A DNA stretch of 40,387 bases, from sequence record MH464253. One strand, 5' to 3'. This stretch comes from Shigella phage SFPH2. A program made the position numbers and the translations under genes. The notes under the pieces were generated by a model that was given only the letters and a program-made list of their open reading frames with translations, did not search any database and was not told where the DNA came from. This document shows positions 1 through 35,472 of the stretch, piece by piece (positions within the stretch are counted from its first letter, which is position 1; every line of letters begins with the position of its first letter).

Positions 1-909
1 GCGACCTTTAGCCCAGTACCCACCACCAACCACCCCGGTCCACGGCTTAGGTGGCACGACGCAGGGCTGGTAAACTGGGGCAATTCCTGCCAGAGAGAAA
101 CCACGCTGAGCCATCTTCTTGACCCAGAAGTCAGACAGGTGGACCATCTCAACGTCTGCCGCAGCGTTGCCTGCACCGTAGCGCTTAAGCTCGACCAGTT
201 GTGAGGACTGGATGACCAGCTCAAGCATCTTGATGCCTACGTGAACAGCCTCGGTCGGACTCCAAGTCCCCCACGCGTCAGCCAGTTGTCCCTGCTCAAG
301 CATAGACGCCTCGACTGCCTGCATGTAGGCCTTCTTGTAGCTTGCGCCAGCGCGTTTCTTCAGGTTCTCCGCGATGGTCTTCTTGAAGTGCTCCTGCTCC
401 TGCTCACGGATGCGACCAAAGCGGATTTCATCTTCCAGTGTGCGACCTATCGCGGATGCCATAGGAGTTATCGGAATGCCTTCAGGCTTGACCAGCTTGC
501 TGAGGATGACTTTCAGTATGATGACCGCAGCAGACTCCGCAGAGATTAGCAGAGAGCGGTCTTTGACAGCCTTCTCGTCAGTGCTCATCATGGTAAACGC
601 CACGCTTGGACGTGAGGTCGAGGACTTACCGTCCGGGCCTTCATGCCACTCACGCACAGCCTTAGCGATGGTCGGAACCAGTGTTTGCATCAGAGGTTTA
701 GCGACCTGATTGTCTGCCAGCTCCCCGCGCTCGGTCTGACGCTCAAGGTTCTTAATGAAACGTCGCTCACCTTCAGTGTATGCCTCATGCTCTAGCTGGA
801 GCTGTTTGACTGCGAGGTCTTGCCCGTAGTGGTCAGCCAGTACGTTGAAAGGTTCGATTGCATTCGACACATCAGAGAAGTCGTGTTTGTCAATTGAGAT
901 GACGCTCAT
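1..909 (-). CDS. gp1: DNA-directed RNA polymerase, N-terminal part (gene cut by window boundary; continues at 40387..38615)
   Basis: ATG at 909..907 with AAGGA 9 nt upstream; translation MSVISIDKHDFSD...FGRIREQEQEHFKK...PCVVPPKPWTGVVGGGYWAKGR is colinear with T7 RNAP N-terminus; frame runs off position 1 with a complete codon. Confidence 0.93.
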   Translation of the reverse strand, partial: MSVISIDKHDFSDVSNAIEPFNVLADHYGQDLAVKQLQLEHEAYTEGERRFIKNLERQTERGELADNQVAKPLMQTLVPTIAKAVREWHEGPDGKSSTSRPSVAFTMMSTDEKAVKDRSLLISAESAAVIILKVILSKLVKPEGIPITPMASAIGRTLEDEIRFGRIREQEQEHFKKTIAENLKKRAGASYKKAYMQAVEASMLEQGQLADAWGTWSPTEAVHVGIKMLELVIQSSQLVELKRYGAGNAAADVEMVHLSDFWVKKMAQRGFSLAGIAPVYQPCVVPPKPWTGVVGGGYWAKGR

Positions 910-984
910 ACTTAAAGTCCTTATAACTGTTGTCTTATCACTAAAGTCTTTCACTTCAGTCCTGACTTAGAGTCTTTCGACCTT

Positions 985-1007
985 GAGTCCTTTAGTGATA
1001 GTTTAGT
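985..1007 (-). promoter_or_regulatory. Phage-promoter-like element upstream of gene 1 (ACTAAACTATCACTAAAGGACTC); variant of the consensus, also half of a 10-bp inverted repeat
   Basis: 17 of 19 upstream positions match the phage promoter consensus but TATAGGG is replaced by TAAAGGA; ATCACTAAAG (plus 944-953 region) pairs with CTTTAGTGAT (988-997). Confidence 0.35.
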
Positions 1008-1011
1008 CCAA

Positions 1012-1338
1012 CTACTTGCATATCAGTGGGTTAGCGTGTAGATGACTGAAGTCACCGCGTGTAGTGTGCTTGATGTCTGACCGCTGGTCTATTGCCCTCC
1101 AGCCGGAGACCAGAAGTTTACCATCGTCAGTGCGAGGTCGTCCACCATACGCCAGACACATCAGCTCGGCCTTATGGCCCTCGGCCCGGAGTCTTGCTTG
1201 CAGCACCCGGTCGCGCTCCTGCTGTTGACGAATGGTGTGACTTGAGGTCCCGTGACGGTAGCCTGTAGCCAGTGCTGAAAGCAGGTTAAGGTCTGCGTCC
1301 AGCGCATGAACCAGATTAATCCCATATGACTTGCTCAT
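1012..1338 (-). CDS. Hypothetical protein, 108 aa, between kinase and RNAP
   Basis: Minus-strand ORF with ATG start overlapping upstream stop (TAATG); no recognisable homolog from memory. Confidence 0.45.
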   Translation of the reverse strand: MSKSYGINLVHALDADLNLLSALATGYRHGTSSHTIRQQQERDRVLQARLRAEGHKAELMCLAYGGRPRTDDGKLLVSGWRAIDQRSDIKHTTRGDFSHLHANPLICK

Positions 1339-1628
1339 TACAGTTTACTCCCTAAGGTTGCGATGTCCCAGACGTTTGCGAGGTTGCGCATGAATCGTCC
1401 GTTCGGTTGTCTTACAGTCCAGCGCCCAAGTGATACATACTGGAAGCGGTAGACTTTACGTGCCTTGATGATGTCCTTCGTGATTACTGCGAGTATTGAC
1501 CCGTAGCCGATGACCAGAAGTATCCAGCCCATTACAGAGACCCTCGCTTGATTGCATCCAGAAGACCCCAAGCTATCAGAAAGATGACCGGAGATAAGCA
1601 CACCCAGTACCCGATGTTCATAGTTCAC
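1338..1628 (-). CDS. Hypothetical protein, 96 aa (GTG start in track); contains hydrophobic segment WILLVIGYGSILAVI; may instead be two short ORFs (30 aa + 64 aa)
   Basis: Track start is GTG; an ATG with AGGTGA SD at ~1620 opens a 30-codon hydrophobic ORF whose TAA overlaps an internal ATG of this frame. Confidence 0.3.
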   Translation of the reverse strand: MNYEHRVLGVLISGHLSDSLGSSGCNQARVSVMGWILLVIGYGSILAVITKDIIKARKVYRFQYVSLGRWTVRQPNGRFMRNLANVWDIATLGSKL

Positions 1629-1688
1629 CTGCCTATATGTTGTGAGAAATAACCTTTGAGACCACTAGATGTAGTGGCCTCTCGTCTA

Positions 1689-2423
1689 TCACTCAGCTAT
1701 TGCGTTCAGCCTGCCTTGCAGCTCGTCTTGATGGTCTGCCTGAGTCCAAGACACTGGGTCTGTGATTATCAGTCGCCCGTTGTTATCAACCATCACATTA
1801 GCGCGGTGTGTGTCGAATGATGCCAGCCCGTAGAAGAAACTGTTAATCTTCTTAGCAGTCTGCGCAAGGTCCTTGATATACTGGGCCTCGACGTGTGCAA
1901 ACTCAGCCCGTGCGTCTTGGTCCAGCCACCAGCTCAGGGCCTCAGACGGTTGCTCGCAATGGTCTATTATCGCGTTGACTACACGCCACGACACGTTTAA
2001 GACTCGCTGCTCGTAGGTCTCACCATCCCGGCAGTAGTCACCGCCGATGTCATTCAGTGAGCGGTACTTATCCATAGCCACCATGTAGGCCCTGCTGAAG
2101 CGCTTGACCAGATGGATGACCGGAAGCCCAGCCAGACCCTCGTTCTCTCGGCAGAAGGCCGCATATGCAGCGCCTGAGTCATCCTTCTTAAAGCCTACCT
2201 TGATTGCATATCCCGGCAGGTCCTCATGCTCAAAGGCAGCGGCGAAATGTCCAAGGCCTAACAGCTTGTAACCATGTTCCCGCGCCAGTATCTCAAAGGC
2301 TCCCCAGCGAGGTTGACCAGCTATGCCAGCGCTAGAGTCTTCAATCTTGTAGCACTCCTCGCAGATGATAGCGTGGAGCTGAGACATCAGGTTATTCATG
2401 ATTACTTTATCGTGTGCGTTCAT
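1689..2423 (-). CDS. gp0.7: Serine/threonine protein kinase (T7 gp0.7-type kinase domain only)
   Basis: LGLGHFAAAF...AIKVGFKKDDSGAAYAAFCR...ITDPVS blocks match T7 gp0.7 kinase domain; ATG at 2423 (MNAHDK) has AAGGAAAC SD, the track start at 2456 is TTG; about 115 residues shorter than T7 gp0.7. Confidence 0.85.
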   Translation of the reverse strand: MNAHDKVIMNNLMSQLHAIICEECYKIEDSSAGIAGQPRWGAFEILAREHGYKLLGLGHFAAAFEHEDLPGYAIKVGFKKDDSGAAYAAFCRENEGLAGLPVIHLVKRFSRAYMVAMDKYRSLNDIGGDYCRDGETYEQRVLNVSWRVVNAIIDHCEQPSEALSWWLDQDARAEFAHVEAQYIKDLAQTAKKINSFFYGLASFDTHRANVMVDNNGRLIITDPVSWTQADHQDELQGRLNAIAE

Positions 2424-2454
2424 TACGTGTGTTTCCTTCTTGTGGTTAAGTGAC

Positions 2455-2495
2455 AATCAGTCAGGCCACCAGCATGGATGACCTGTAGTCTGGCA
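2455..2495 (-). promoter_or_regulatory. Conserved RNA hairpin A (candidate RNase III processing site)
   Basis: Minus-strand transcript CAGGUCAUCCA..UGGUGGCCUG, stem closed by G-U wobbles; member of a 5-copy family. Confidence 0.5.
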
Positions 2496-2515
2496 CTCGT
2501 CTACAGCGCTAGGCC

Positions 2516-2863
2516 CTAGACCTCCACCGCGATGGTCGTCATCTTGGTTACAGTAAGTCCGCCAGCCAGCTCGACTGCATAGCGTATCGCCTCTTCTTTG
2601 GACTTAAAGTCCTTACCAGCAAGGTGGTATGTGTCCCCTGTTATTACCTTAGATGGACTGCGACTTACCGCAATAGCGTTTTCCATGGCAAGCTCACCAC
2701 GGCTATACTGAGTAAACCAGCGCTTCACCGAACTCGTCCCCACCCCGAACTTTTGGGCTGTTTCCGTCACCCTATCCATAACGCCCTCAGGTAGAGAGGT
2801 GTAGTATTCAACAACGTTGAGTTTAAATGCTAACGAGAATACATTGCGAGTTTTAGCAGTCAT
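2516..2863 (-). CDS. Early protein with putative N-terminal helix-turn-helix (115 aa)
   Basis: ETAQKFGVGTSSVKRWFTQY resembles transposase/sigma-type HTH (A..GVS..T..RW); SD GAAGGAAAG upstream. Confidence 0.6.
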   Translation of the reverse strand: MTAKTRNVFSLAFKLNVVEYYTSLPEGVMDRVTETAQKFGVGTSSVKRWFTQYSRGELAMENAIAVSRSPSKVITGDTYHLAGKDFKSKEEAIRYAVELAGGLTVTKMTTIAVEV

Positions 2864-2884
2864 TATTCTTTCCTTCTATATTTG

Positions 2885-2940
2885 TCAAGTGGTAATCACT
2901 CAGGCCACCATGTAGATGACCTGTAGTTTAACACTCAGTA
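2885..2940 (-). promoter_or_regulatory. Conserved RNA hairpin B (candidate RNase III processing site)
   Basis: CAGGUCAUC-UACAU-GGUGGCCUG with two G-U wobbles, same flanks as hairpins A, C, D. Confidence 0.5.
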
Positions 2941-3060
2941 CCCGCCTGTCAGCGTTATGGTTAGCGCATGGTGGTTAGCCGTGTAGCAGGCCCCGCGCTT
3001 CATCAGCTCGACGAGACCATCATAGAACGCCTGCTCGCTGCTGTAGCTTATCGTGTACAT
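2935..3060 (-). CDS. Small hypothetical ORF (41 aa)
   Basis: ATG overlapping upstream stop (TGATG); MYTISYSSEQAFYDGLVELMKRGACYTANHHALTITLTGGY; below track length cutoff. Confidence 0.3.
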   Translation of the reverse strand: MYTISYSSEQAFYDGLVELMKRGACYTANHHALTITLTGGY

Positions 3061-3263
3061 CAGTAGAACCTCCTTGCGTACTTGAGGAAAGCGCCATCAC
3101 GCAGAATCTCCCAGTCTCCCCAGCTCAGGCTATAGCTATGCGGAAGTTTGAACTCCTTGTTAACGTGTATGCTTGACCGTATGGTCACAAACTTGGAGTC
3201 GCCCACGGTCTCAATATCAACCGTTATCCACGGCTTGATGTGATTAGGGTATGAGTTAATCAT
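3060..3263 (-). CDS. Hypothetical early protein (67 aa, 0.4 position)
   Basis: ATG at 3263 (MINSYPNH) directly after SAMase stop with GGGAGGTGG SD; track start at 3296 lies inside SAMase. Confidence 0.5.
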   Translation of the reverse strand: MINSYPNHIKPWITVDIETVGDSKFVTIRSSIHVNKEFKLPHSYSLSWGDWEILRDGAFLKYARRFY

Positions 3264-3264
3264 C

Positions 3265-3717
3265 TTACACCACCTCCCAGAACCGACCTTCAGCATCTTT
3301 CGTGAAGCATTCGCCCTTTGGTGCCTCGACTTGCTGGAATGCCCCGTTCAGACGTGTGGTCTTGTAGCCATCCAGACCTTTGCAGAACATCAGGCCAGCC
3401 GTGTGAGTCTGAGACTTGTAGACCATCACGCAGTCTTGCTCAAAGTCATTGCAGGCCAGCCGCGCAACGTTGATAGCCTGAGCTTTGGACTCACAGCGCA
3501 CACGATATGTTCTCTCCTCAGTGGCGACCTCTTGCCCTTCCTCGCGGTAGCATCCTGTAAGCCCAGTGCATTCGAGCACACCGTAGTAGTCTGGCTCAGC
3601 TTGTAGCAGTGCCTTAAGGTCTAACTGACGGCCCATGTTCACTATGTCTGACAGTCCAGCACGAGCGGCTGACACGAGCACATAGAAGACGTTAGCTGGT
3701 TCGTTAGTGTAAATCAT
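3265..3717 (-). CDS. gp0.3: S-adenosyl-L-methionine hydrolase/lyase (T3 gene 0.3-type SAMase, anti-restriction)
   Basis: MIYTNEPANVFYVLVSA...TGCYRE...VRC.SKAQAINVARLACN..EQDCVMVYKSQTHTAGL matches T3 SAMase as recalled, near-identical length (150 aa). Confidence 0.88.
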   Translation of the reverse strand: MIYTNEPANVFYVLVSAARAGLSDIVNMGRQLDLKALLQAEPDYYGVLECTGLTGCYREEGQEVATEERTYRVRCESKAQAINVARLACNDFEQDCVMVYKSQTHTAGLMFCKGLDGYKTTRLNGAFQQVEAPKGECFTKDAEGRFWEVV

Positions 3718-3931
3718 GATGTGTATCCTTTAAGTGTGAGTGATTATCATAAAGAGACCTGAGGCGCTCATCTTGAGCCTGACCCGCAGTAGCCAACAAG
3801 TCTCTTGAGTTAATCGCTTACTATCGGCGCACATTAAGAGTTATCCAGATTGTTAAAGAGCATTCGCTTGGCTGTCGTCGCCTCGCTAGCCTGTTTCAGT
3901 GTTAGGCTTCACTGTCGTTTCGATGTGGTTC

Positions 3932-3961
3932 ATACTACTTTAAGTCGTTACTGCTTGTCAA
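3932..3961 (-). promoter_or_regulatory. Candidate host sigma70 promoter (TTGACA-N18-TAGTAT), rightward/sense
   Basis: Hexamers read on minus strand upstream of the early genes. Confidence 0.3.
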
Positions 3962-4076
3962 CTACTTTCTTTCTGTCGGTTGCCTGTTTTTCGTATGTCT
4001 TACAGGCTGACTACTTAACCGGACCGACCCGGCGTCTTCACTATCCGGTTGTTGCCGTGTCGTGTTGACGGAAGCT

Positions 4077-4105
4077 ATTAAACCAAAAGTCAGACCTACT
4101 GTCAA
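4077..4105 (-). promoter_or_regulatory. Candidate host sigma70 early promoter (TTGACA-N17-TTTAAT), rightward/sense
   Basis: Perfect -35 and 17-bp spacer on minus strand, ~360 bp upstream of SAMase. Confidence 0.4.
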
Positions 4106-4168
4106 CAACTATTTATCATGGTAATTTATACAGTAGTCCAATGACTATATAATAACGACTACAGATGA

Positions 4169-4196
4169 TTGACTTTAAGTCTGGACTGTGGATAAT
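4169..4196 (+). promoter_or_regulatory. Candidate sigma70 promoter on the antisense strand (TTGACT-N16-GATAAT)
   Basis: TTGACTttaagtctggactgtgGATAAT on plus strand; closely resembles T7 A1 core (TTGACTtaaagtct...GATACT) but points opposite to all genes. Confidence 0.4.
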
Positions 4197-4199
4197 GAG

Positions 4200-4852
4200 A
4201 GTCCAGTTAGCAAGACACTAACTAATAACCCTAGTCAGCTATGGTCTCTGACTGCTAAACGGACCGGATGTGATAACCTGTGAGTCTAGACCTTAGGACT
4301 CTGATAAACTGAAGGTCGACATGGTGTCTATTGACTGTAGGTAGTGAGACTGTAGGTAGTCCCGTTACCAATGGATTGACTGTAGGTAGTGAGACTGAAG
4401 GTGATGACTCTAGGCTGATACAGATAGCGACTCAGGGACACAACATATAGTCCCGACCAATCGTCCCTACCACAAGATATAGGCCCTATCGGTCCAGACT
4501 TCGGGTCGACTTCGGGTCAAAGACTTGAGGTTTAGACCTTCGGTCTAGGGGTAGGGCCTTTGGTCGAGACTTAAAGAGGGCCTATGGGGAGACTTGAGGT
4601 TCTTGAACTGTGAGATGTGGTCTCAAACTTTTGGTCCAAAACTCATCGTCCCTACTGTAGGCCTCAGCCACTGTAGGTCAAGGACCGTAGGTCAGGCGAC
4701 ACTAGGGTAGACCAGTGAGTAGGATGACCCTAAGTGAGCTTCTCTTAAGGTGTTACCTAAAGTCCTTGACTACAGTAGCTAAGGTCAGTAGAGTAGCGTC
4801 AGCTATGAACTGACCTTAGGTCCGTCTTTCGTTGATTGTTACCATGATGGCG
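4200..4852. repeat. Repeat-rich non-coding terminal region (expected location of physical genome ends / terminal repeat / concatemer junction)
   Basis: No ORF of 60 codons or more on the coding strand; 22-bp perfect direct repeat TTGACTGTAGGTAGTGAGACTG at 4331-4352 and 4376-4397; recurring CTGTAGG, ATCGTCCCTAC, AGACTTGAGG, CTTCGGGTC motifs. Confidence 0.6.
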
Positions 4853-5011
4853 TTAATGACACTCAGACACCAGAGTACATACGAGAGTCTCGACCCACCC
4901 GACCCACTGACTTCCAGCAGTAACGCCAGCAGCAAGTAGAACAGCAGCAAGAAACCTGTATGTAGCTCTATTGGTCGCCAGAGCTTTAAGAACAGCTTTG
5001 GTCTTACCCAT
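4853..5011 (-). CDS. gp19.5: gp19.5-like small protein (52 aa)
   Basis: MGKTKAVLKALATNRATYRFLAAVLLAAGV... resembles T7 gp19.5 (..RVTYRFLVVLCAALGY..); AGGAGGT SD 7 nt upstream; lies downstream of the phiOR-position promoter. Confidence 0.65.
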   Translation of the reverse strand: MGKTKAVLKALATNRATYRFLAAVLLAAGVTAGSQWVGWVETLVCTLVSECH

Positions 5012-5185
5012 GCTACATACCTCCTGTCGCTTAGGGTCTACTTAAGTTATGAGGGTGTGATGATTACAATCACCCTCTCCATCGGTGCTAACCTTAGGTA
5101 AGAACTAAGGAGTCTGCCTCCTAAGGTCTTGCATAAAGTGTGCATATGCTTATTCATTGAGTCTTTACTATAAGTAACCGGGGGT

Positions 5186-5208
5186 CTTCCCTATAGTGAT
5201 AGTTAAGT
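5186..5208 (-). promoter_or_regulatory. Phage RNAP promoter (phiOR position): ACTTAACTATCACTATAGGGAAG
   Basis: Full consensus match between terminase large subunit and gene 19.5. Confidence 0.85.
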
Positions 5209-5301
5209 CCCTTTCCCTTTAGAATCATTAAATTACGAGAGATACCTAACGCACTACTTACTGCTTATACATGCAGATTTCATGCGTAGGTATTCATTAG
5301 G

Positions 5302-7065
5302 TTAGTGGAACTTGACGTAGGACCCTAAGCCTAAGTCATCATCTGTATTGAACTGGACCCGGACCCCATTGTCCCAATAGTCAGTCTCGATGGACTTAAA
5401 GCCTTTCCGAGGGTCTTCCATCTGTTCCTCAAGCCACTCTTCTGTTACTTCACGCTGTCCCTTGACGGCATCCTTCGCCATAGACTCTACGAAGAACTGT
5501 ACACCGATAGCCAGAGCATCAAGTCGGTCGTCATGAGCCAAGGCTCCACGTTCACGGCTGATACGGGTCATCTGGTAGAACAGAGAGTAGATAGGGTTAC
5601 GGACACCATCCTTATCGGCAGCAGTCTGGTAGTCAGACACAATGGTCGAGGAGTTCACGATGAGTCGGTGAGACCCCATGATAGGCTCCAGAACGTCGCA
5701 GATGCGCAGCTCCTTCTGACCCTTACTCTTGACCTCGGTAACTGCTGCCGGGTGAATACGGGCCGCTACAGGCTTGAAGAGTTCGAGATACATACCGTCA
5801 CCGAAGTTACCTTCAATCACGTACTCGTTGACCTTCCACTTACGACCAATCTTAGCCAGAGCCTCCAGCGTAGAGTCCTCATAGCCACCACGCATACCAC
5901 CCGCTTCCATCACGAAGATGTAGCCGTTGAGCTGGTACAGAACCGCATACCCGGTCTCATCCTTACCTCGACCACTTGGGTCAATGACCAGAATCTTCTG
6001 GGTGTACGAACTGAAGGCAGAACCTACAGTCTGATACGTATGGTAGGAATCGCCCATGAGTCCCACGTTAGGAACGTCATCACGCTTGTTCTGAAGGTTC
6101 GGCAGCCACTGGTATACCATAGGGCTAGACTCAGGGTCCAAGTCCGCTACGATAAGGTCACGCAGCTTCAGAGGGTATTTCTCGGCGTCCCCTAGGTTGG
6201 GGTTCAGCATGAACTGTAGGGCGAAGCCCGCCTTACCATAAGACAGCTCACGCTCCTTCAGGTCCTCATCGTCGAAGCGAACCTCATCGGTCGGTCTCCA
6301 GTAGTATCCCTCAGGGTCAGACTCCAGCTCGGCCTGAAGCATAGGAGCCAGACGGTCTCCGTAAGACTTCCAGTCCTTCTCATCACGTGGGTAGCGGGCA
6401 GGCCAGATGGTAGTTGAGTAACCACGACCCTCAAGCTGTCGATACAGGGTCATCTCGGTCTGAGGAGTACCCAGATAGATAACCGTACCACCCGGCTTCA
6501 GGATTGCGTCGAACTCTTTCACCAGCTCTGACAGTCTGTCACGTGCCGCCTGAGTAGCGGAGTTACCGGGGACCTCTACGTCATCGGCAATCAGGATGTC
6601 AGCACGGCTACCAGTTAACTGACCAGTGATACCAACGGACTTAACCGAGGGAGAGTGGTCAGGCTTGGCAGGCCCTACGTCAAAGCTGATTACTGCGTCT
6701 CGCTGCCCCTGCTTAGGCTTCAACTCTTGGAGCTGAGGCATGAGGTCGATGATACGCTTGATGAAGATTGAGTTCGCATCGGCTCGTTCCTTTGAGGCCG
6801 ACACAATCATGAACTTCAAGTCCGGGTTATTCCATAGCTTCCAGACCACGAAGGCACACGTAATGAAGGACTTCCCGATACCACGGAATGCCTGCAAGAT
6901 GAAGCGCCTGTTGTCCCCAGCCGATAGCTTCTTCGCCATGTCAATCTGACAGCGAGTCGGAACAGGAAGTGACAGAGCTTTCCACAGAACGAACAGGAAG
7001 AACACGAAGTCTGACTTCATACGGGCAGTCATAAGCGCCTGACGCGCTGCTAAGTCTTGACTCAA
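5302..7065 (-). CDS. gp19: Terminase large subunit (DNA maturase B)
   Basis: 587 aa; Walker A-like GIGKS, colinear with T7 gp19 (586 aa). Confidence 0.95.
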
Positions 7066-35234: not shown

Positions 35235-35394
35235 CGTGCAGCTCAGGTCGGATGCGGCCTACCACGAAACCAGCATCTTCATACTCCTGAGACTTTAGGG
35301 TCGCCTCGTCCAGAGACTTGGCGTATACCGGGACCTCAAAGGACTGAACGCGACCCTCAAGCTCCACGATGTACTTCTTTTCTTCAAGGCTCAT
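35230..35394 (-). CDS. gp2: Inhibitor of host RNA polymerase (T7 gp2-like)
   Basis: [34 protein letters not shown] matches T7 gp2 [35 protein letters not shown]; ATG at 35394 preferred over track GTG at 35412. Confidence 0.85.
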
Positions 35395-35472
35395 AGCCCT
35401 CTCCCCTTCCACAGGTTATACATTTCGAGATAGTCTGTGTTACCTGTCCTCTCGAACATCATCTCGCACCAT

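What the first reader, a model, noticed from the sequence alone, without database searches (positions are those of the whole stretch)
1012..2423. Kinase lacks the T7 C-terminal region; two extra ORFs sit between 0.7 and gene 1
The 0.7-type protein (244 aa) covers only the kinase domain, whereas T7 gp0.7 has an extra C-terminal host-shutoff region. In its place are two separate ORFs (96 aa with a hydrophobic segment, 108 aa) coupled by overlapping stop/start. They may be a diverged or split shutoff module, or unrelated early accessory genes.
Basis: partly seen in the sequence, partly recalled or inferred. Interest (0 to 1): 0.45.

Follow-up and report, generated by a model that had tools for sequence, protein, structure and literature searches.

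The report
Kinase-only phage kinase, ordinary neighbour genes
This K1F-like (Kayfunavirus) phage has a T7-type protein kinase that naturally lacks the DNA-binding "shutoff" tail; the ORFs after it are not pieces of that tail but small early genes already named in relatives (gp0.6, gp0.38) plus an overlooked 29-residue membrane peptide, so the locus is ordinary.

Summary
The window is a Kayfunavirus (K1F-like T7 relative) read on its minus strand. It is 96.7% identical here to Shigella phage ESh23, and the kinase is 100% identical to Cronobacter phage Dev2 gp0.5.

Confirmed:
- A 244-aa gp0.7-type kinase (1689-2423) ends exactly at the T7 kinase/shutoff boundary (T7 residue 242) and keeps the Gly-loop and DPV-Ser motifs.
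- A 108-aa ORF (1012-1338) is joined to the upstream ORF by a TAATG overlap.

Corrected:
- The "96-aa" ORF is an over-extension.
- The conserved gene is 64 aa (1338-1532) and belongs to the T3 gp0.6 / K1F gp0.37 family (phrog_2385).
- A separate 29-aa hydrophobic ORF lies upstream in another frame (1532-1621). Its substitutions are 61 synonymous to 14 nonsynonymous, against 2 to 78 in the 96-aa frame.

Rejected: a split or diverged shutoff module.
- Neither ORF resembles the shutoff domain (BLASTP nothing; hhalign probability 0.2%).
- Both ORFs sit in the same place in K1F and EcoDS1, which have no kinase.
- T3 has gp0.6 as well as a full-length kinase.
- gp0.38 relatives precede the RNA polymerase gene in kinase-less Pseudomonas phages.
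- All kinase homologues at 54% identity or more are 244 aa or shorter, so this is not a frameshift artefact.

The functions of gp0.6 and gp0.38 remain unknown. Low interest; already known.

The parts
1689..2423 (-). Kinase-only homologue of T7 gp0.7 (T7K): 244 aa, protein kinase (PK) domain only, no shutoff (SO) domain.
   Evidence: phrog_15752 E 4.5e-114. BLASTP to T3 and T7 gp0.7, E 2.6e-39 and 1.8e-34. Alignment A3 shows the LG.GHF glycine loop (T7 G76), VIKVGFKK, FD.H..N and ITDPVS (T7 D213-S216) conserved, and the protein ends at T7 residue 242. 100% identical to Dev2 gp0.5.
1637..1696 (-). Conserved stem-loop (10-bp upper stem, internal loop, lower stem) that starts in the kinase stop-codon region. 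Inferred to be an RNase III-type processing site and a cassette boundary.
   Evidence: RNA fold -22.4 kcal/mol, z -2.1. Conserved in all ten Kayfunavirus loci aligned, including kinase-less K1F, where it follows gp0.35, which also ends ...AE*. RNase III function is inferred from its resemblance to annotated T3/T7 R sites and was not tested.
1532..1621 (-). 29-aa hydrophobic micro-ORF (MNIGYWVCLSPVIFLIAWGLLDAIKRGSL).
   Evidence: Translation. Codon-position and synonymous/nonsynonymous test. Shine-Dalgarno AGGTGA 4 nt upstream and a TAATG overlap with the gp0.6 start. tblastn finds it full length in 93 phage records down to about 58% identity. Best 19-residue hydropathy window 1.99.
1338..1532 (-). 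gp0.6 (T3 gp0.6 / K1F gp0.37 family), 64 aa: N-terminal hydrophobic helix plus a basic, conserved C-terminal part.
   Evidence: phrog_2385 E 1.4e-26; T3 gp0.6 hits the same family at 9e-30. 77% identical to K1F gp0.6 and 32% to T3 gp0.6 (E 3e-6). Annotated as 64 aa in EP1, GW1, IMM-002, SFP21A and Dev2. pI 11.0; best hydropathy window 1.98 at residues 4-22.
1012..1338 (-). gp0.38-family protein, 108 aa: variable N-terminus (residues 1-24), conserved core (about residues 27-108) with an invariant C-terminal GDFSHLH motif. Function unknown.
   Evidence: phrog_7066 E 7.4e-43. 147 homologous clusters and 219 phage records. Named gp0.38 in K1F, EcoDS1 and Dev2. Alignments A1 and A4. AlphaFold model with helices at 33-53, 56-63 and 71-88, pLDDT about 90 in the core. 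No informative fold match.
985..1007 (-). Phage RNA polymerase promoter just after the gp0.38 stop codon and upstream of gene 1.
   Evidence: Its 17-nt core (987-1003) matches the consensus AACTATCACTATAGGGA, which has 11 copies in the window, all on the minus strand, against 0.1 expected. The homologous site is annotated as a phage promoter in EcoDS1.
2449..2500 (-). RNase III-type hairpin upstream of the kinase gene. A second copy lies upstream of the 115-aa gene at 2886-2937.
   Evidence: The core ACAGGTCATC...GGTGGCCTGA is shared with the annotated T3 R1 site and the T7 R1 region. The two window copies are 85-86% identical (families D4 and D8). Folds.
1..909 (-). N-terminal part of the T7-type RNA polymerase gene (gene 1); context only, cut by the window end.
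   Evidence: The ATG at 909 and the sequence read. Relatives annotate RNA polymerase at the homologous position.

Best explanation
This is the standard early (class I) region of a Kayfunavirus. It is built from small, independently exchangeable gene cassettes separated by RNase III-type hairpins.

In phage order (the minus strand of the window) the elements are:
1. RNase III-type hairpin.
2. A 244-aa kinase.
3. A second hairpin.
4. A 29-aa membrane peptide.
5. gp0.6 (64 aa, membrane-anchored).
6. gp0.38 (108 aa).
7. A phage promoter.
8. Gene 1 (RNA polymerase).

The kinase is a clade-wide, natural 'delta-SO' form of the T7 kinase (SO is the T7 kinase's C-terminal shutoff domain). It keeps the catalytic and autoinhibition motifs. 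It most likely acts early in infection as a promiscuous Ser/Thr/Tyr kinase on host proteins, including defence proteins, but without the DNA-binding tail that steers T7K to nucleic-acid-binding substrates and delays its self-inactivation. Host RNA polymerase shutoff is left to the gp2 homologue encoded elsewhere in the window.

The last three ORFs are translationally coupled by TAATG overlaps. gp0.6 and gp0.38 are backbone genes of the genus, present whether or not a kinase is there, and are not remnants of SO.

Shown here: gene boundaries, homologies, synteny, absence of SO, motif conservation. Inferred: kinase activity and its altered targeting, RNase III cleavage at the hairpins, membrane location of the 29-aa peptide and gp0.6. 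The role of gp0.38 is a guess: a small helical host-factor binder.
For: Identity of the phage: (96.7% to ESh23; Kayfunavirus relatives).

Kinase:
- Family matches.
- Motifs, and the end at the T7 PK/SO boundary (PK is the kinase domain). Boundary coordinates come from PMC13645617.
- All homologues at 54% identity or more are 217-244 aa, while those at 47% or less are mostly 366-392 aa.
- No SO anywhere in the window; gp2 homologue at 35245-35397, E 2.7e-11.

The effects of deleting SO in T7 are taken from PMC13645617: about 31% of phosphopeptides remain, preference for nucleic-acid binders is lost, and the activity plateaus earlier.

gp0.6.

29-aa ORF.

gp0.38:
- Family and distribution.
- Same position in kinase-less K1F and EcoDS1.
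- Same position in Pseudomonas phages Keeri and PspYZU08, where no kinase is annotated in the stretch inspected.

Hairpins and promoter.
Against: - No experiment shows that the 244-aa protein is an active kinase or what it phosphorylates.
- In phage JSS1 both the kinase and SO domains were needed to defeat Dnd restriction (PMC12345140), so a kinase-only protein might be a weaker or differently used tool than assumed.
- The RNase III assignment of the hairpin at 1637-1696 rests on shape and position only. Its arms differ from the T3/T7 core and its z-score is only -2.1.
- gp0.38 has no informative structural or sequence relative, so any role given to it is a guess.
- The first structure model was poor (pLDDT 51) and the second is only moderate overall (pLDDT 68).
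Confidence: 0.85

Rival explanations
1. The two downstream ORFs are a split or strongly diverged version of the T7 gp0.7 shutoff (SO) domain, now expressed as separate polypeptides.
For: They occupy the space between the kinase and gene 1, where T7 and T3 have the SO domain. Both are basic: gp0.6 has pI 11.0 and gp0.38 has pI 9.6.
Against: - BLASTP to T7 and T3 gp0.7 gives only chance hits (E 0.09 or worse).
- hhalign of the gp0.38 profile against an SO profile gives probability 0.2%.
- An SO HMM finds nothing in the window.
- K1F and EcoDS1 have both genes but no kinase.
- T3 has gp0.6 upstream of a kinase that still carries SO.
- gp0.38 relatives lie before gene 1 in Pseudomonas phages with no kinase annotated in the stretch inspected.
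- gp0.38 carries net charge +5 against +14 for SO.
Confidence: 0.02
2. The short kinase and the following ORFs are a sequencing or frameshift artefact, or a pseudogenised full-length 0.7 gene.
For: None found.
Against: - 29 phage records cover at least 80% of the region at megablast sensitivity (identities 87-97% among those listed).
- Eight related genomes were inspected. All have the same gene order, and their kinases are 236-244 aa.
- 43 protein clusters at 54% identity or more are all 244 aa or shorter.
- The kinase stop lies in a conserved hairpin shared with kinase-less K1F.
Confidence: 0.01
3. The 96-aa GTG-initiated ORF is translated as such (an N-terminally extended gp0.6), and the 29-aa ORF is a chance overlap.
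For: The frame is open in the window, ESh23, Pisces and SFP21A. Phage Pisces annotates an 87-aa version.
Against: - The substitution pattern is that of a non-coding frame: 2 synonymous to 78 nonsynonymous differences, with 12 of 17 variable sites at its first codon position.
- The extension is absent in GW1, IMM-002, K1F, ST29 and LET1.
- A 1-nt indel in EP1 removes the GTG start from that frame.
- The family profile starts at the ATG.
- The 29-aa peptide is conserved in 93 records.
Confidence: 0.04
4. gp0.38 (or the coupled trio of 29-aa peptide, gp0.6 and gp0.38) is not homologous to SO but replaces its function in trans, for example by tethering or prolonging the kinase or by inhibiting host transcription.
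For: It lies close to the kinase. It is basic and helical. The kinase-only clade must do without SO's reported roles.
Against: The genes are equally conserved in phages without any kinase. Only about 46 of roughly 219 gp0.38-bearing records have a close kinase homologue. No evidence of DNA binding was obtained.
Confidence: 0.07

Closest known systems
T7 gp0.7 protein kinase (T7K; also T3 gp0.7 and JSS1_004)
   Same: Homologous kinase domain with the same motifs: the glycine loop containing T7 G76, the DPV motif, and the autoinhibitory serine after it. It is an early gene upstream of gene 1 and is preceded by an RNase III-type site.
   Different: It stops at the PK/SO boundary, so it has no C-terminal DNA-binding shutoff domain. 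It is only 31-42% identical to T7/T3 and has a longer central variable region. It lies upstream of gp0.6 rather than downstream as in T3.
Cronobacter phage Dev2 gp0.5 and the Kayfunavirus 'protein kinase' clade (phrog_15752)
   Same: 100% identical protein in Dev2. Full-length members are about 230-244 aa (shorter entries look like fragments), with the same neighbours (gp0.6, gp0.38, gene 1).
   Different: Nothing of substance. Dev2 has a chimeric 70-aa gp0.38 that shares only the last 34 or so residues.
T3 gp0.6 / K1F gp0.37 (also called gp0.6); phrog_2385
   Same: Same family. About 64-65 aa, with an N-terminal hydrophobic helix and a conserved basic C-terminal part. Early region.
   Different: In T3 it precedes the kinase; here it follows it. 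It is not related to T7 gp0.6A/B. Function unknown in all of them.
K1F / EcoDS1 gp0.38 (phrog_7066)
   Same: Same conserved core and C-terminal GDFSHLH..PLICK motif. It is the last gene before the phage promoter and gene 1, and it overlaps the gp0.6 stop codon.
   Different: The N-terminus is mosaic across phages: 84-86, 108 and 130-139 aa forms. The window has the 108-aa form. Function unknown.
T7 gp0.5 and K1F gp0.36 (small hydrophobic early peptides)
   Same: The 29-aa ORF occupies the same slot, between the hairpin and gp0.6, as the 41-aa T7 gp0.5-like peptide of phage ST29 and the 53-55-aa gp0.36 of K1F and LET1. All are single hydrophobic segments.
   Different: No detectable sequence similarity between the 29-aa peptide and either of them, and no PHROG family matches it.

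Membership tests
T7K / gp0.7 protein kinase family | Sequence homology of the kinase domain | tested here: met
   phrog_15752 E 4.5e-114 and phrog_2828 E 3.3e-53. BLASTP to T3 and T7 gp0.7, E 2.6e-39 and 1.8e-34.
T7K / gp0.7 protein kinase family | Catalytic and regulatory motifs: glycine loop (T7 G76), DPV motif (T7 213-215), autoinhibitory Ser216 | tested here: met
   Invariant columns in A3 include G58 (LG.GHF) and T221 D222 P223 V224 S225. Motif definitions are from PMC13645617.
T7K / gp0.7 protein kinase family | C-terminal shutoff (SO) DNA-binding domain following the kinase domain (canonical two-domain architecture) | tested here: not met
   The protein ends at T7 residue 242. There is no SO anywhere in the window. 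It is therefore a member of the kinase family but not of the two-domain architecture.
T7K / gp0.7 protein kinase family | Ser/Thr/Tyr kinase activity on host proteins | not testable with these tools
   Needs a biochemical assay or phosphoproteomics.
T7 gp0.7 shutoff (SO) domain, considered for gp0.6 and gp0.38 | Sequence or profile similarity to T7/T3 SO | tested here: not met
   BLASTP E 0.09 or worse. hhalign probability 0.2% for gp0.38. SO HMM finds no hit on these ORFs.
T7 gp0.7 shutoff (SO) domain, considered for gp0.6 and gp0.38 | Occurrence tied to the kinase (SO is found fused to a kinase domain) | tested here: not met
   Both genes are present in kinase-less K1F and EcoDS1. T3 has gp0.6 plus a kinase with SO.
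T7 gp0.7 shutoff (SO) domain, considered for gp0.6 and gp0.38 | Toxicity, transcription shutoff or DNA binding | not testable with these tools
   Needs expression and binding experiments.
T3-type gp0.6 (phrog_2385) | Profile match over the full length, about 65 aa | tested here: met
   Window 64-aa protein E 1.4e-26, covering profile positions 7-69 of 70; T3 gp0.6 E 9.1e-30.
T3-type gp0.6 (phrog_2385) | N-terminal hydrophobic helix followed by a basic conserved region | tested here: met
   Hydropathy 1.98 over residues 4-22; pI 11.0. The same layout is seen in the K1F and T3 sequences.
gp0.38 family (phrog_7066) | Profile match and conserved C-terminal motif | tested here: met
   E 7.4e-43. 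G95, F97, H99 and L100 are invariant even with distant members included.
gp0.38 family (phrog_7066) | Position as the last, or next to last, early gene before gene 1 | tested here: met
   Window. K1F, EcoDS1 and Dev2. Pseudomonas phages Keeri and PspYZU08.

The most novel reading that the evidence does not exclude
The Kayfunavirus 244-aa kinases would be a stable natural 'delta-SO' lineage of the T7 kinase. They would have re-solved substrate targeting and timing of self-inactivation in some other way. The candidates are their longer central insert or help in trans from the translationally coupled trio downstream (29-aa membrane peptide, membrane-anchored gp0.6, gp0.38), for example by working at the membrane instead of on DNA.
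Probability: 0.08. Interest if true: 0.5.

Novelty: already known. Interest (0 to 1): 0.15.

Why it matters
The practical value is mainly a corrected annotation.
- There are three genes rather than two.
- The 96-aa ORF should be replaced by gp0.6 (64 aa) plus a 29-aa membrane micro-ORF, which many GenBank records of this genus leave unannotated.

There is a modest biological point. Recent work shows that the T7 kinase's shutoff domain binds DNA, steers the kinase to nucleic-acid-binding targets and delays its auto-inactivation (PMC13645617). It is also needed for anti-Dnd activity in phage JSS1 (PMC12345140). A whole clade of related phages that naturally lacks this domain is therefore a ready-made comparison for asking what the kinase does without it. 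Nothing here opens a long-standing question.

Tried and rejected
- Pfam and NCBIfam scans of the kinase, gp0.6 and gp0.38, and an NCBIfam scan of the 29-aa ORF, gave nothing above threshold. The local Pfam copy also lacks the T7 kinase family PF27024 and gave no hit even for T7 and T3 gp0.7.
- No solved structure is related to T7 gp0.7 by sequence.
- The first AlphaFold model of gp0.38 was unusable (27 close homologues, pLDDT 51).
- An exhaustive profile search of 1.84 billion representatives found only 15 clusters for gp0.38. Two were long proteins that match only profile positions about 9-56 in several repeated stretches, probably compositional rather than homologous (not checked).
- The intrinsic-terminator scan found none in 850-4600, so the hairpin after the kinase is not a simple terminator.
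- The supplementary tables of the T7K paper are not held, so I could not check whether this clade was among its 'divergent C-terminus' cases.
- Literature searches found no paper on the function of T3-type gp0.6 or gp0.38.
Full report
**What the window is.** All genes in the first 7 kb run on the minus strand. The region 900-2600 is 96.7% identical to Shigella phage ESh23 and 88-95% identical to many other Kayfunavirus genomes (K1F-like members of the T7 family, Studiervirinae).

In phage order the early region reads:
- S-adenosylmethionine lyase, 3265-3717 (Pfam E 1.2e-39).
- A DUF7300 protein, 3060-3296.
- A 41-aa ORF.
- A 115-aa helix-turn-helix protein, 2516-2863.
- The kinase, 1689-2423.
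- The ORFs in question.
- The N-terminus of the T7-type RNA polymerase, 1-909.

**The kinase.** The 244-aa product matches the phage kinase family phrog_15752 at E 4.5e-114 and the T7/T3 family phrog_2828 at 3.3e-53. It aligns with T3 and T7 gp0.7 at E 2.6e-39 and 1.8e-34.
- In the three-way alignment the glycine loop (T7 G76), VIKVGFKK, FD.H..N and ITDPVS (T7 D213-S216, the DPV motif and the autoinhibitory serine) are conserved.
- The protein's last residues align with T7 residues 230-242.
- The recent T7 kinase study places the kinase domain at 1-242 and the shutoff (SO) domain at 243-359 (PMC13645617). So this protein ends exactly at the domain boundary.
- No SO-like sequence occurs anywhere in the window, by tblastn with T7 and T3 SO and by an SO profile HMM against all six frames.

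The short form is a clade trait, not an accident.
- The protein is 100% identical to Cronobacter phage Dev2 gp0.5.
- Eight relatives inspected have kinases of 236-244 aa.
- In the large protein database, every homologue at 54% identity or more is 217-244 aa. Those at 47% or less are mostly 366-392 aa.

**The '96-aa' ORF is two genes.** Only residues 33-96 match the family profile phrog_2385.
- From the ATG at 1532 the protein is 64 aa. It is 77% identical to K1F gp0.6 (gp0.37 in the other K1F record) and 32% identical to T3 gp0.6 (E 3e-6). T3 gp0.6 hits the same PHROG family at 9e-30.
- Relatives GW1, IMM-002, K1F, ST29 and LET1 have no upstream extension.
- In the window and four relatives, the 89 nt between a shared Shine-Dalgarno sequence (AGGTGAACT) and the gp0.6 ATG encode a 29-aa hydrophobic peptide in another frame, ending in TAATG.
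- Twelve of 17 variable sites are third positions of that frame. Pairwise codon differences are 61 synonymous to 14 nonsynonymous there, against 2 to 78 in the 96-aa frame.
- A 1-nt indel in EP1 removes the GTG start from the 96-aa frame and leaves the small ORF intact.
- tblastn finds the peptide at full length in 93 phage records down to about 58% identity, often unannotated.

The same slot varies between phages:
- Empty in GW1 and IMM-002.
- A 41-aa T7 gp0.5-like peptide in ST29 (BLASTP 1e-5).
- A 53-55-aa gp0.36 peptide in LET1 and K1F.

**The 108-aa ORF.** It matches phrog_7066 (E 7.4e-43), has 147 homologous clusters and occurs in 219 phage records. K1F, EcoDS1 and Dev2 call it gp0.38.
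- The core (about residues 27-108) is strongly conserved, with a C-terminal GDFSHLH..PLICK motif.
- The N-terminus is mosaic between phages: forms of 84-86, 108 and 130-139 aa exist, and Dev2 has a 70-aa form that shares only the tail.
- An exhaustive profile search found only 15 representative clusters.
- The most distant members belong to Pseudomonas T7-like phages (Pifdecavirus, Pijolavirus). There the gene again lies directly, or one gene, upstream of the RNA polymerase gene, and no kinase is annotated in the stretch inspected.
- With those members added, AlphaFold gives a confident helical core: helices 33-53, 56-63 and 71-88, pLDDT about 90, overall 68.

**Is either ORF a piece of the shutoff domain? 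No.**
- BLASTP gives only chance matches.
- Profile-profile comparison of gp0.38 with an SO alignment gives probability 0.2%.
- K1F and EcoDS1 have gp0.6 and gp0.38 in the same place and no kinase.
- T3 has gp0.6 as well as a full kinase with SO.
- Only about 46 records have a close homologue of this kinase, against 219 with gp0.38.

The kinase therefore looks like a cassette added to a conserved backbone, not the other way round. Its stop codon lies inside a conserved hairpin (GCTGAGTGATAGACGAGAGGCC...). In K1F the same hairpin follows the unrelated gp0.35, which also ends ...AE*.

**Signals around the genes.**
- Hairpins upstream of the 115-aa gene and of the kinase share the core ACAGGTCATC...GGTGGCCTGA with the annotated T3 R1 RNase III site and the T7 R1 region. 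They are 85-86% identical to each other.
- The hairpin between the kinase and the 29-aa ORF has the same build (upper stem, internal loop, lower stem; -22.4 kcal/mol, z -2.1). I infer RNase III processing at these sites; it was not tested.
- Right after the gp0.38 stop there is a phage promoter (985-1007; its 17-nt core at 987-1003). It is one of 11 minus-strand matches to AACTATCACTATAGGGA, against 0.1 expected, and is homologous to a promoter annotated in EcoDS1.

**How it most likely works.** The kinase is probably an active, promiscuous early kinase like T7K, whose hyperactivity is conserved among the Autographiviridae homologues tested (PMC13645617). It lacks SO.
- In T7, SO binds DNA, biases the kinase to nucleic-acid-binding substrates and delays auto-inactivation. 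Deleting SO leaves about 31% of the phosphopeptides and an earlier plateau.
- By inference, this phage gives a shorter, less DNA-directed pulse of phosphorylation. It would rely on its gp2 homologue (35245-35397, E 2.7e-11) to inhibit host RNA polymerase.
- The 29-aa peptide and gp0.6 each have one hydrophobic segment (hydropathy about 2.0) and are probably membrane proteins.
- gp0.38 is a small basic helical protein (pI 9.6). Its position and conservation suggest a host-directed early function, but I have no direct evidence for any target.

**Verdict.** The 'split shutoff module' idea is rejected and the 'unrelated early accessory genes' alternative is right. The genes are already deposited and named in close relatives, so the locus is ordinary. 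The useful by-products are the corrected gene boundaries and the conserved 29-aa micro-ORF.

Noticed in passing
window 1532-1621 (-); loci L001-L004, L007-L011: The slot between a shared Shine-Dalgarno sequence and the gp0.6 ATG is variable. It is empty in GW1 and IMM-002. It holds a 29-aa peptide in the window, ESh23, Pisces, EP1 and SFP21A. In ST29 it holds a 41-aa T7 gp0.5-like peptide, and in LET1 and K1F a 53-55-aa gp0.36 peptide. All the inserts are small hydrophobic ORFs, and many records leave the 29-aa one unannotated.
   Followed up: yes
window 2445-2498 and 2884-2936 (-): A roughly 55-nt RNase III-type hairpin element is duplicated (85-86% identity) upstream of both the kinase and the 115-aa helix-turn-helix gene. 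The 115-aa gene is present in GW1 but absent from EP1, Pisces and SFP21A. The duplicated hairpins look like the boundaries of an inserted cassette.
   Followed up: partly
window 2516-2863 (-): A 115-aa early protein has a weak Brinker/transposase-type helix-turn-helix match (Pfam BrkDBD E 6.9e-5, just under the cut-off). It is an unusual putative DNA-binding protein directly upstream of the kinase.
   Followed up: no
window 987-1003 (-) and 10 other sites: The phage RNA polymerase promoter consensus AACTATCACTATAGGGA has 11 matches, all on the minus strand (0.1 expected). One lies between gp0.38 and gene 1, a place where T7 is annotated only with a host promoter (C).
   Followed up: partly
L004 (IMM-002) 2567-2989; CHRF_20041 and CHRF_10037 records: Some relatives carry an endonuclease VII gene inserted between gp0.6 and a shortened (84-aa) gp0.38. 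This shows that the gp0.6/gp0.38 junction is an insertion hot spot.
   Followed up: no
window 1012-1338 (-); alignment A1: The gp0.38 N-terminus is mosaic: a 24-aa leader, an optional 31-aa insert (LRTFTDKNGVEWKYVGTDSRGRNYWEKTG..), or neither. Dev2 has a 70-aa chimera that keeps only the last 34 or so residues. The invariant C-terminal motif GDFSHLH..PLICK was modelled with low confidence (pLDDT about 50).
   Followed up: partly
window 1689-2423 (-), about residues 125-165: The kinase is about 20-25 residues longer than T7 and T3 in the central variable region between the conserved N-terminal and C-terminal kinase motifs. This rests on a three-sequence alignment only.
   Followed up: no
window 3800-7065: The window is circularly permuted relative to the usual T7-type map. 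The terminase large subunit (5302-7065, minus strand) precedes the genome-end region. That region contains tandem 26-nt repeats at 4330-4400 and host-type promoter-like sites near 3930-4200.
   Followed up: no
phage records OR786095.1, PQ520054.1, MT350293.1: Records labelled Staphylococcus phage MBBL139 and Enterococcus phage IME_EF3 are about 90% identical to this enterobacterial Kayfunavirus. Enterococcus phage EFA-2 carries a T7-type SO domain. These host labels are probably wrong. The closest record, ESh23, is 'UNVERIFIED' and its features here are mis-annotated on the wrong strand.
   Followed up: no
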